NCBI GenBank assembly: GCA_020353515.1
Contig: CP070695.1
Span: 2,279,155-2,343,154, forward strand
Source of the DNA: Candidatus Heimdallarchaeota archaeon
GTDB taxonomy: Archaea; Asgardarchaeota; Heimdallarchaeia; Hodarchaeales; Hodarchaeaceae
DNA length: 64,000 bases
Direction: 5' to 3'
Below the pieces are notes generated by a model, which worked only from the letters and a program-made list of their open reading frames with translations, was not told the DNA's origin and ran no database searches. Numbering within the stretch: position 1 is the stretch's first letter; each line of letters opens with the position of its first letter. A program made the translations under genes and the position numbers. Positions 38,726-41,347 of the stretch are shown here, one piece after another.

Positions 38726-39193
38726 TCAGCTTCGACTTTTTTCGTGTTCCTCCTTCCTTAATCTGGTACTACTTTCCAATGAACCATCAGTACGAACTAC
38801 ACGGGGTACAATGATTATTGTGAGCTTTGACTTTCCTTTTGAGGTACGTAAGCGATTAATGGTATTTGCTCCAGAACAGGTTTCTTGGGACACAATTAGA
38901 GCACCTAACTTTGCATCACTGGCTAAATTTCTATCCATTCCAGGATTTTCTATACGAGTTATTTGACATTGCGTTTTCCTTTTCGAGAAGAAAGTTTCAA
39001 CTGCAATCCGACGGACTTGGAAACTTTGGATAATCTCGCTGTAATTTTTGTGGATTTTATCTAAGTAACTTGGACTAATCAATCCAACATGGACATTTTG
39101 TCCGTAGTGTGCAGCAATATCGAGAAAAAGCTTGTGTCCCATATGTAAGCGATCGAATGTTCCACCTAGTCCAACATTTTCAAATTGTCTCAA
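38726..39193 (-). CDS. coaD: Phosphopantetheine adenylyltransferase (archaeal/eukaryotic type)
   Basis: GGTFDRLHMGHK, IVSQET, IN..R...G, SST.LR. Confidence 0.88.
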   Translation of the reverse strand: MRQFENVGLGGTFDRLHMGHKLFLDIAAHYGQNVHVGLISPSYLDKIHKNYSEIIQSFQVRRIAVETFFSKRKTQCQITRIENPGMDRNLASDAKLGALIVSQETCSGANTINRLRTSKGKSKLTIIIVPRVVRTDGSLESSTRLRKEEHEKSRS

Positions 39194-39324
39194 ATTTTAA
39201 TCTCCATGAATAAGTTCATGGCTTCCTGACTTTTATGAAAGGAAAAATTTATGAATTAAATTAACATTGTTATACCAGCCATGAAGGAAAAAATTCTGCT
39301 TTTCGAGGACCAGAGGATGTATAT

Positions 39325-39552
39325 GAATCTTGGTGCAAATAAGCAGAGAAATCCAGAGCTATTTAATCCGATAAGATTAGAAGACGGGCTCTCGCACGAG
39401 ACTGGGTGTGTCACCCAACAATGAGCGTTAGGGTTAACCCTTCTAACCGACAGGATTACTGGATCGTTAAAGCCCTTCACAAGAGAACTCGGTTGAATAA
39501 GGCCTAATGGCTGAATATGTAGCTGAGAGTTAGTGTCTAGGGCTACAGATCC
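39325..39552 (-). ncRNA. Unassigned ~230-nt structured RNA
   Basis: GC-enriched intergenic block with paired ends, four nested long-range stems and several hairpins; G-U pairs favour the minus strand. Confidence 0.7.
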
Positions 39553-39640
39553 TTTCATTTAGAATTTTTAATCATTCAGAGAGAACTCATAACAAAGAGA
39601 AATAGAATAATAATCGGAGTTTTAATTCTAATTAAAAAGA

Positions 39641-39676
39641 TGTGCAGGTGTCCTGCCGATCCTGCACAAAAAAAAT
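39641..39676 (-). terminator. Hairpin with T-tracts downstream of dnaG
   Basis: TGTGCAGG/CCTGCACA 8-bp inverted repeat flanked by A-tracts on + (T-tracts on -). Confidence 0.5.
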
Positions 39677-39682
39677 TGAAAC

Positions 39683-40927
39683 TTATTCAGAAAAAGTATA
39701 GACATCTATATCTAAGGGTTTCTTTGTAACATCGTGTTGTTTAGCACCAACAATAGTTTTTATTCCTCTTTCTGATGCAACATCGAGAAGTCTTTGGGTG
39801 ATTATCCCATTGAAAATTATTGCTGTTACATCTTCTGTCTCGAGAATGATGTCACGAAGTTCACTGATAGCTATGTGTTCTTTTAAAATTTCAGATTTCG
39901 ATCCAAGTAAAATGGCTTCTTGTTCTGAGAGATTTTCAAGAAATTGGGCAAAATTACGTGGAATTTTTGACATCATGGAAGAACTCGGTTGAGACCTAAC
40001 GATGATTGGGATTTCTTTTGGTTCTGTTTCTGACCGAGACTTGTTTGAAGATTCATCTGATTCAATGTCTTCTGGGGAGATATTCATTTCTTTCATAATT
40101 TGTTCAATTGGGATTTTAGTACGTAAGGATTTTAGAAGCTCTTTGCTAGATAGTTCTTCAACTTCTCGATTCGGGGGAGCCCTGGCAACATAATCTAAGT
40201 CAGTAAGATGAATGAGCTCTCGGAGAATAAGATCACCACCATGGTCACCATCTAAAAAGGCGGTGGTTACTTTTTTTCGAGAGAGTTCAATAACATCAGG
40301 AGGCACATTAGTTCCTTGTACAGCAATCACATTTCGAAAACCATGTTTTAAAAGATTGACAACATCAGCTCGTCCTTCAACGATAATTAAATTGTCACTA
40401 TCTTGAATACCTGGACCAGCTGGTAAATCCTCTTTCCCATATTTTTGAATAATACTAATACGAGCCTCTTTTAGAACTTCATCTAAAACAGAGATGGAAT
40501 CAGGAGCTACTTCATGATCCCAAGTTTTTAGAATCTGAGATGCACGAGTAATAATCTGCCTACGTTTACTTTCACGAACATCTTCTACTTTTAATAAAGA
40601 GATCTTTCCAACACAAGGTCCAACACGATCTACAGTTTCCAAAGCAGCCGCAAGCAAAGCTGTTTCGACTCGATCGAGTGATGATGGGACGATAATGGTT
40701 CCTGTAGTTTTCCGTTGTTTTTTTTGGTATTGTAATTTTACAGCAATTCTTCCTATTCTTGATGTTTTTTGCAGTTCTCGTAAATCTAATCCCTCACCAA
40801 TTAATCCCTCGGTTTGACCGAACAATGCTCCAATAATATCTGAGCGCTCTGCCACACCGTTAATACTAAATTTTTCATGGATAAGATACTTTACAGTTGA
40901 AGTATCGATATCCTCTTCGTTTACCAT
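39683..40927 (-). CDS. dnaG: Archaeal DnaG (TOPRIM primase-like, exosome-associated)
   Basis: GALFGQTEGL, LRELQK..RIGRI, ETVDRVGPC, VEGRADV, DGDHGG. Confidence 0.96.
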   Translation of the reverse strand: MVNEEDIDTSTVKYLIHEKFSINGVAERSDIIGALFGQTEGLIGEGLDLRELQKTSRIGRIAVKLQYQKKQRKTTGTIIVPSSLDRVETALLAAALETVDRVGPCVGKISLLKVEDVRESKRRQIITRASQILKTWDHEVAPDSISVLDEVLKEARISIIQKYGKEDLPAGPGIQDSDNLIIVEGRADVVNLLKHGFRNVIAVQGTNVPPDVIELSRKKVTTAFLDGDHGGDLILRELIHLTDLDYVARAPPNREVEELSSKELLKSLRTKIPIEQIMKEMNISPEDIESDESSNKSRSETEPKEIPIIVRSQPSSSMMSKIPRNFAQFLENLSEQEAILLGSKSEILKEHIAISELRDIILETEDVTAIIFNGIITQRLLDVASERGIKTIVGAKQHDVTKKPLDIDVYTFSE

Positions 40928-41347
40928 GGTTGTTTCACCTCCAATAGTCGCTAGGTGAAACTGCATATATCATTATGATTGGTAAATTTTCTTTCATGGT
41001 GTACTACTATTTCTTAAGTGAATTAAATGTATAAGTATAATAATAATAATGGTGATATGCGGTTCCACTTGCGCAATTGTCTTTAATTTGTGTTTTAATG
41101 ATTTTTAATCAGTGTCAAGTTGATTGAAATTGCCTCATGGATCAACATCACCTTTAAGTGGTGATTTTTTTTGGAATGAAATTTGATTCTATTCCTTCTA
41201 CTACAAGTCCATAGAGGCTCTTTTAAATATGAATTTTTTTGTGAATAAACCTGCAGGACAAGGATTTATTCATTTTGCTTGCTATAGTAACACAAGAATT
41301 CCGAGAATTTTAAATTATGGGTACAAGGAAAAAATAAGCAGAAATTT

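What the first reader, a model, noticed from the sequence alone, without database searches (positions are those of the whole stretch)
39325..39552. Unassigned ~230-nt structured RNA between dnaG and coaD
Seen in sequence, read on the minus strand: the 5' and 3' ends pair (GGAUCU 39547-52 / AGAUUC 39325-30). A 5' domain has two hairpins (GUAGC/GCUAC and GCC-AUUA-GGC) and a possible AACUC/GAGUU pseudoknot. A long interrupted rod follows (UGUGAA-GGGC/GCUU-A-UUUGCA, AUCCAG/CUGGAU, AAUCC/GGAUU, GGUUAGAAG/CUUCUAAUC), ending in a multibranch loop with hairpins UGGGUG/CACCCA and UCUC/GAGA. Several pairs are G-U on this strand and would be A-C on the other. The layout loosely recalls 7S SRP RNA, but I see no helix-8 SRP54 motif, no RNase P GAGGAAAGUCC and no 5S signature. 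Inference: an RNA family I cannot assign, lying in a core-genome neighbourhood.
Basis: partly seen in the sequence, partly recalled or inferred. Interest (0 to 1): 0.8.

Follow-up and report, generated by a model that had tools for sequence, protein, structure and literature searches.

The report
Three-hairpin pseudouridine guide RNA, Asgard
This is a real, conserved 275-base RNA gene, read on the opposite strand from the one first proposed, and it is best explained as the Asgard-archaeal version of a known three-hairpin guide RNA (Pab40/HgcG) that marks three core sites of the large ribosomal RNA for conversion to pseudouridine.

Summary
The structured RNA is real, but it lies on the + strand (39278-39552), is about 47 nt longer than reported, and can be assigned. 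It is conserved in 21/21 relatives of the genus, with compensatory changes, and has a conserved BRE/TATA-like signal upstream on the + strand only. It folds into three box H/ACA hairpins. Each has a pocket, a K-loop or K-turn, and an ANA box 14 nt from the pocket (63/63 hairpins). Rfam's best hit is the three-hairpin guide HgcG/Pab40 (E 4.7e-5; 24.5 bits, below the 77-bit cut-off). The pockets pair best with 23S U2496, U2586 and helix-69 U1915/U1917 (E. coli numbering), the sites known or predicted for Pab40/Afu4/Pf7 motifs 1-3. Cbf5, Nop10 and L7Ae are encoded; Gar1 has only a weak hit. SRP, RNase P and 5S genes lie elsewhere. Hairpin 3 is found in 62/151 genomes of the phylum. One feature differs from Pab40: a C/D-type K-turn clamps hairpin 1 in five Asgard families. 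Expression and modification were not tested. The scan reached the same reading before on other genomes (e1-5444459, e1-5444466). Verdict: a known kind of RNA, modestly interesting.

The parts
39240..39255 (+). BRE/TATA-like archaeal promoter, about 24-35 nt before the RNA start, divergent from coaD
   Evidence: AAA..TTTTT profile conserved at a fixed distance across 21 homologues; none upstream of the minus-strand end. Function inferred.
39278..39552 (+). Whole three-hairpin box H/ACA guide RNA, 275 nt (ends inferred from conservation and promoter spacing)
39278..39359 (+). H/ACA motif 1 with its basal K-turn clamp. Lower stem 39295-39300 with 39342-39347; 5' pocket UCGAGG(A) 39303-39309; K-loop GA pairs 39316-17 and 39325-26; 3' pocket GCAA 39335-39338; ANA box (AAA) 39349-39351
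   Evidence: Pockets invariant in 21 homologues; best rRNA match is 23S U2496, score reached by 2/200 shuffles; aligns to Pab40 motif 1
39278..39288 (+). Bulged strand (C-box-like, GC-CAU-GA-AGG) of the basal K-turn; its partner strand (D-box-like, UCC-AGA-GC) is 39352-39359
   Evidence: Pairs kept in 20-21 of 21 homologues, one compensatory (helices 1-2); same motif in four other Asgard families
39367..39455 (+). H/ACA motif 2. Lower stem 39377-39383 with 39440-39446; 5' pocket GACGG 39383-39387; K-turn GA pairs 39398-99 and 39423-24; apical hairpin 39404-39416; 3' pocket AACCC 39436-39440; ACA box 39450-39452; basal stem UCC/GGA
   Evidence: best rRNA match is 23S U2586; same pockets in family f3
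39461..39552 (+). H/ACA motif 3. Lower stem 39472-39476 with 39539-39543; 5' pocket AAGAGA 39481-39486; K-turn 39495-96 and 39519-20 (degenerate here, GU for GA); 3' pocket GUUAGU 39529-39534; ACA box 39545-39547; basal stem GGAUC/GAUCC
   Evidence: pairs with helix 69 around U1915/U1917; homologues in 62/151 genomes of the phylum
38726..39193 (-). coaD-like cytidylyltransferase-family gene (neighbour on the promoter side; kept next to the RNA in all 21 homologous loci)
39683..40966 (-). dnaG (Toprim), convergent with the RNA; no dnaG match in the loci from G016 and G001 (the G001 contig ends just past the element)

Best explanation
A stand-alone sRNA gene transcribed on the + strand from its own promoter. 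The RNA folds into three box H/ACA motifs. Each binds L7Ae at its K-loop or K-turn and Cbf5-Nop10(-Gar1) at its lower stem and ANA box. The two strands of each internal loop pair with 23S rRNA on either side of a uridine and place it about 14 nt from the ANA box, where Cbf5 converts it to pseudouridine. Motif 1 targets U2496 (helix 89), motif 2 U2586 (peptidyl-transferase centre loop), and motif 3 U1917 (14-nt register) and probably U1915 (16-nt register) in helix 69 (E. coli numbering). It is the diverged Asgard orthologue of Pab40/HgcG/Pf7/Afu4, with an extra K-turn clamping motif 1. Shown here: conservation, fold, boxes, spacing, complementarity and presence of most core protein genes. Inferred: transcription, exact ends, protein binding and the modifications themselves.
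For: 97.1% of cells paired over 55 pairs; 8 pairs with changes on both sides; 0/500 shuffles as high; slid controls 27-47%. ANA at exactly 14 nt from the 3' pocket in all three motifs of all 21 homologues. Independent Rfam hit RF00064, + strand, full model, E 4.7e-5, with motif 1 and 3 pockets and K-loop aligned; its motif-2 consensus holds the same AACCC pocket. In the scan of genus 16S and 23S, U2496 and U2586 rank first and U1917 is tied first. The 2496-2586 targets are 90 nt apart, like P. abyssi 2588 and 2678. PMC2377435 gives 2588 for motif 1, 2016 for motif 3 and the 2678-equivalent as expected for motif 2 of Afu4/Pf7. PMC2584109 maps 2016 to E. coli 1915 and gives the halophile homologues of motifs 2 and 3 the sites 2586 and 1915/1917. 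Pockets stay fixed while stems change in other families. Cbf5, Nop10 and L7Ae pass their cut-offs.
Against: The Rfam score is 24.5 bits against a cut-off of 77, and the hit appeared only when a short stretch was searched (not). Taken alone, the pocket matches are weak for motif 2 (18/200 shuffles) and motif 3 (50/200), and I chose the pockets after guessing the targets by eye. Motifs 2 and 3 leave about four target bases unpaired instead of two; this is tolerated in H. volcanii sR-h45 (PMC7075261) and is not a strict rule (PMC2377435). The motif-3 K-turn reads GU instead of GA in 18/21 homologues. Gar1 is a weak hit only (E 0.02). The genome lacks its own 16S and 23S in the assembly, so targets come from relatives; the 2496 and 2586 sites come from one genus member (G005) plus other families. 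The structure was derived from these same sequences, which favours it in the pair counts.
Confidence: 0.92

Rival explanations
1. An H/ACA RNA in which only motif 1 (and perhaps 2) still guides pseudouridylation, while motif 3 acts mainly as an rRNA chaperone for helix 69 or has another target.
For: The motif-3 match ties with other sites and is reached by 50/200 shuffles. Its K-turn is degenerate in most of the genus. Four to six target bases stay unpaired.
Against: The GAGAG and GUUAGU pockets and the 14/16-nt spacing to ACA are kept across many Asgard families. The homologous motifs of Pab40 and sR-h45 modify helix 69.
Confidence: 0.15
2. A minus-strand, SRP-like rod RNA of an unknown family.
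For: The minus strand also folds better than most shuffles (z -2.59); some listed helices exist in this one sequence.
Against: Its specific pairings are not conserved (44-87%). Variants give A-C mismatches on minus. No conserved promoter on that side. A separate SRP gene exists. All H/ACA marks fall on plus.
Confidence: 0.02
3. A composite C/D-H/ACA RNA, like eukaryotic scaRNAs, in which the basal K-turn recruits Nop5-fibrillarin and also guides 2'-O-methylation.
For: C-box-like (RUGA-UGG/AGG) and D-box-like (CUGA/CAGA) sequences flank motif 1 in five Asgard families. Pab21 is a known archaeal H/ACA-C/D hybrid transcript (PMC2377435).
Against: [quoted passage not shown] There is no C'/D' pair. 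Boxes deviate from consensus in this genus. A plain L7Ae site that protects the 5' end explains the motif.
Confidence: 0.06
4. A conserved small protein-coding frame (100-aa ORF 39256-39558 on minus, or a 47-aa ORF on plus).
For: The 100-aa ORF is open in this genome.
Against: No Pfam match. Every frame holds stops in the other 20 homologues. Variation follows base pairs, not codons.
Confidence: 0.01

Closest known systems
Pab40 / HgcG (Rfam RF00064), Pf7, Pho40, Afu4: three-motif box H/ACA sRNA of Thermococcales and Archaeoglobus (PMC2377435)
   Same: Three motifs in the same order; about 275 nt; near-identical motif-1 core (CGAGGACC, AUGA, GGUGC); AACCC pocket in motif 2; GUUA pocket in motif 3; predicted targets match 2588, 2678 and 2016 of P. 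abyssi (E. coli 2496, 2586, 1915).
   Different: Scores far below the Rfam cut-off. Has a K-turn clamping motif 1, whereas the Pab40 transcript starts at the motif itself (PMC4652768). Motif 2 is a simple hairpin without Pab40's extra stem-loop. Motif 3 pairs with 1921-1926 and can reach U1917 in a 14-nt register, which Pab40 did not modify in vitro.
Haloferax volcanii sR-h45 (two hairpins; PMC7075261, PMC2584109)
   Same: The two halophile hairpins are homologues of Pf7 stems II and III and are assigned to E. coli 2586 and 1915/1917; one pocket makes both helix-69 pseudouridines with four unpaired target bases.
   Different: Lacks motif 1; its hairpins are separated by a 56-base spacer.
Yeast snR191 / human U19 (helix-69 guides; PMC2584109)
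   Same: Same sites (yeast 2258 and 2260 = E. coli 1915 and 1917).
   Different: Eukaryotic two-hairpin form with H box and no K-turn (own knowledge). Homology of the RNAs was not tested.
Archaeal SRP RNA (RF01857)
   Same: Similar length; superficial rod on the minus strand.
   Different: No match here; the SRP gene lies at C1:678584-678890.

Membership tests
Archaeal box H/ACA guide sRNA | One to three hairpins, each with lower stem, internal-loop pocket and upper stem | tested here: met
   Three hairpins; MFE equals centroid; 97% paired with covariation
Archaeal box H/ACA guide sRNA | ANA (mostly ACA) box 3' of each lower stem, 14-16 nt from the target U | tested here: met
   63/63 at 14 nt: motif 1 AAA 14, AUA 5, ACA 2; motifs 2 and 3 ACA 21 each
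Archaeal box H/ACA guide sRNA | K-turn or K-loop with tandem G-A pairs in the upper stem, 9-10 bases from the pocket | tested here: met
   Motif 1: canonical K-loop, 9 nt. Motif 2: K-turn, 10 bp once two 2-nt bulges are set aside (12 nt counted directly). Motif 3: 9 nt, but canonical GA/GA in only 3/21 of the genus
Archaeal box H/ACA guide sRNA | Bipartite pocket complementary to rRNA on both sides of a uridine | tested here: met
   U2496 4+6/7 bp (2/200 shuffles), U2586 5+5 bp (18/200), U1917 4+6 bp (50/200); ranked first or tied first. Strong for motif 1, weak alone for motifs 2 and 3
Archaeal box H/ACA guide sRNA | Core proteins Cbf5, Nop10, L7Ae and Gar1 encoded | tested here: inconclusive
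   Cbf5, Nop10 and L7Ae pass their cut-offs; Gar1 only E 0.0185, below cut-off
Archaeal box H/ACA guide sRNA | Expressed, bound by Cbf5, and guides pseudouridine formation | not testable with these tools
   No RNA holder was listed; needs experiments
Rfam RF00064 HgcG/Pab40 | Covariance-model score at or above 77 bits | tested here: not met
   24.5 bits, E 4.7e-5; other Asgard copies reach at most 51.9 bits. Not filed as a formal Rfam member; orthology is inferred
Rfam RF00064 HgcG/Pab40 | Three motifs in the same order with the same three target sites | tested here: met
   Pocket sequences align; 90-nt target spacing equals 2588 to 2678; 2016 = E. coli 1915. P. abyssi sequences themselves were not fetched (one search failed)
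Box C/D methylation guide sRNA | C/D plus C'/D' motifs with free 10-21-nt guides 5' of D and D' | tested here: not met
   Only one C/D-like K-turn; the bases 5' of the D-like box are stem and ANA box
Archaeal SRP RNA | Match to RF01857 with helix-8 SRP54 motif | tested here: not met
   The only genome hit is elsewhere; none in the window stretch
RNase P RNA / 5S rRNA | Match to RF00373 or RF00001 signatures | tested here: not met
   RNase P at C1:2633669-2634031; 5S is a permuted gene at about C1:1285100-1285260

The most novel reading that the evidence does not exclude
The Asgard form is a composite RNA: the conserved C/D-type K-turn around motif 1 recruits Nop5-fibrillarin as well as L7Ae, which would make it a prokaryotic forerunner of eukaryotic mixed C/D-H/ACA guides and the ancestral source of the eukaryotic guides for pseudouridines 2496, 2586 and 1915/1917.
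Probability: 0.06. Interest if true: 0.7.

Novelty: new variant of a known kind. Interest (0 to 1): 0.33.

Why it matters
I found no paper describing an H/ACA guide RNA from Asgard archaea (the library is incomplete), and Rfam misses these copies at its cut-off. The RNA predicts pseudouridines at sites that eukaryotes also modify: helix 69 and the 2496 site are highly conserved in eukaryotic rRNA, and 2586 is modified in fly and mouse (PMC2377435). This gives a direct test, in cultured Asgard strains, of which eukaryotic rRNA modifications were inherited with their guide. It also extends the Pab40 family from Euryarchaea to the eukaryote-related lineage. The mechanism itself is textbook, so the surprise is small.

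Tried and rejected
Rfam scan of 1.1 kb: only chance hits; the HgcG hit appeared with a 371-nt stretch. Idea that this is the missing 5S rRNA with an expansion: rejected, since the 5S gene is elsewhere and permuted. SRP paralogue, RNase P type T and U3-like readings: no signature. Protein-coding readings: stops in homologues. Sequencing runs: no RNA holder listed; this is no evidence either way. Pattern scan of genome contigs for Thermococcales Pab40 from the Rfam consensus: only chance matches, so P. abyssi numbering was checked by spacing and by papers only. A strict promoter regex found 11/21 on plus and 1/21 on minus; the position profile is the better test. An alternative motif-3 match in the L1-stalk region was dropped because it has no U at the target position. 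The full-length 23S in G001 (L051) is only 65-71% identical to the other genus 23S and was excluded as a probable contaminant. The sigma-70 scan does not apply to archaea.

Full report
Observation. The interval lies between dnaG and coaD, both on the minus strand. A DNA search finds one sharply bounded block, window 39278-39552, in 21/21 genomes of the genus at 73-89% identity, with unconserved flanks (mean pairwise identity 77%). So the element is real, and about 47 nt longer than reported. It is not coding: the 100-aa minus-strand ORF has no Pfam match, and all six frames carry stops in the 20 other homologues.

Strand. The full element folds at z -3.45 (0/200 shuffles; MFE equals centroid) on plus, against -2.59 (4/200) on minus. 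In the two helices that both readings share, variants give 10 A-C mismatches and 1 G-U on minus. Over my whole + strand structure the count is 72 G-U against 7 A-C cells, though that structure was drawn on plus. A BRE/TATA-like AAA..TTTTT profile is conserved about 24-35 nt before the + start, and nothing is conserved before the minus start. coaD, on the promoter side, stays adjacent in every locus, while no dnaG match is seen in the G016 and G001 loci.

Anatomy. On plus the RNA forms three hairpins. Each has a lower stem, an internal loop whose two strands are invariant, an upper stem with tandem G-A pairs, and then an ANA triplet. Of 1148 cells over 55 pairs, 97.1% pair; 8 pairs show changes on both sides; no shuffle of 500 reaches this; slid controls give 27-47% (relatedness and my having drawn the structure from these sequences inflate this somewhat). 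The ANA triplet lies exactly 14 nt from the start of the 3' pocket strand in all three hairpins of all 21 sequences. These are the defining features of archaeal box H/ACA motifs (PMC7075261; PMC2377435). Each ANA box sits in an internal loop closed by a short basal stem. Around motif 1 that stem continues into a K-turn made of a C-box-like 5' end and a D-box-like segment at 39352-39359.

Family. Independently of my model, cmscan gives RF00064 HgcG (Pab40) on the + strand over the full model, E 4.7e-5, 24.5 bits against a cut-off of 77. Motifs 1 and 3 align with matching pockets, and the model's motif-2 consensus contains the same AACCC pocket. SRP, RNase P and 5S genes are elsewhere. The genome encodes Cbf5, Nop10 and L7Ae above cut-off and a weak Gar1 candidate.

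Targets. The assembly lacks 16S and 23S, so I used rRNA of genus members, including one on the same contig as the homologous RNA in G016. Scanning every U in 16S and 23S: motif 1 (pockets UCGAGG and GCAA) ranks U2496 first, 27 against 18 for the next; motif 2 (GACGG and AACCC) ranks U2586 first; motif 3 (AAGAGA and GUUAGU) has helix-69 U1917 tied first. Shuffles of the rRNA reach these scores in 2, 18 and 50 of 200 trials, so only motif 1 is strong alone, and I picked the pockets after guessing the sites. The real weight comes from agreement with the literature. Pab40 motif 1 modifies P. abyssi 2588 and motif 3 modifies 2016; motif 2 of Afu4 and Pf7 is expected to act at the 2678-equivalent (PMC2377435). 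The first two targets here are 90 nt apart in four Asgard 23S sequences, as are 2588 and 2678. PMC2584109 maps 2016 to E. coli 1915 and assigns the halophile homologues of motifs 2 and 3 to 2586 and 1915/1917. The number 2586 rests on my knowledge of the GGGUU-U-AGA context, and 2496 follows by spacing. Motif 3 offers two registers: GUUA with 1911-1914 (U1915, 16 nt from ACA) and UAGU with 1913-1916 (U1917, 14 nt). Family f8, which has GUUAAU, has ACA 14 nt from GUUA instead. This resembles the dual action of H. volcanii sR-h45.

Distribution. Hairpin models find motif 2 in 14/31 genomes of family f3, where the three motifs follow in the same order with the same pockets and different stems. 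Motif 3 is found in 62/151 genomes of the phylum, in 14 families, nearly always with the motif-1 pocket upstream in the loci I read. RF00064 itself rings in 13/151, never over the cut-off. Not found in those searched for f2, f4, f6 and f7; one motif-1 hit in f5; filters were strict and genomes are incomplete. The basal K-turn is seen in f1, f8, f14, f25 and f28, and not in f3 or f9. The Pab40 transcript starts at its first motif (PMC4652768), so it has no room for this clamp.

Mechanism and verdict. Shown: conservation, + strand fold, boxes, spacing, complementarity and most of the protein machinery. Inferred: transcription, L7Ae and Cbf5 binding, and pseudouridine formation at 2496, 2586 and 1915/1917. 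The basal K-turn is most simply an extra L7Ae site that protects the 5' end; a C/D guide role is unlikely because no free guide precedes the D-like box. It works like Pab40 and meets the H/ACA class tests that sequence allows; it is not a formal RF00064 member by score. I reached this reading before opening the earlier notes; two follow-up reports on other genomes reached the same one, which is not independent evidence. New variant of a known kind; interest 0.33.

Noticed in passing
G000:C1:1285100-1285260 (L005:1385-1545, +); L193-L206, L040, L041, L048: The 5S rRNA gene is circularly permuted: 3' half first, helix I closed by a loop, then the 5' half, between strands that form a bulge-helix-bulge (CCGG/CCGG helix with AAG and AAA bulges in most relatives). 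Cutting and joining would restore CCGGAAGUUAAG. Matches in 20/21 genus genomes; permuted order read in 10 genus loci and in family f3. The scan has noted this many times; no paper found on an Asgard case.
   Followed up: partly
window 39644-39666 (minus): A hairpin GCAGG-ACA-CCTGC followed by a T run, about 20 nt after the dnaG stop, is conserved in about half of the genus; probably a dnaG terminator facing the convergent sRNA.
   Followed up: no
L009:622-713 (G009:C251:1338-1429): A second, partial copy (89% identical, 92 nt) of hairpin 3 lies about 880 nt from the full RNA, towards dnaG.
   Followed up: no
L055-L059, L062 (e.g. G010:C12:515019-515329): Isolated 300-nt matches to the 3' end of 23S rRNA (model 2721-2973), sometimes two per genome and in mid-contig, in several genus members; may be repeats or split rRNA.
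   Followed up: no
L069 (G008:C9:1695-3919): The 16S rRNA gene of G008 spans 2225 nt against about 1475 in relatives, which implies an insertion or intron of about 750 nt.
   Followed up: no
L143 (G123:C46:47545-51083): The 23S of G123 has 519 nt rather than 90 between the 2496 and 2586 sites, which implies an insertion of about 430 nt in domain V.
   Followed up: no
L001 (G000:C1:678584-678890, minus): The SRP RNA scores 74.1 bits, under the Rfam cut-off of 96.5, so it would be missed by standard annotation.
   Followed up: no
L024:1463-1499: G010 carries an insertion of about 36 nt in the linker between motifs 2 and 3, showing that the linker tolerates length change.
   Followed up: no
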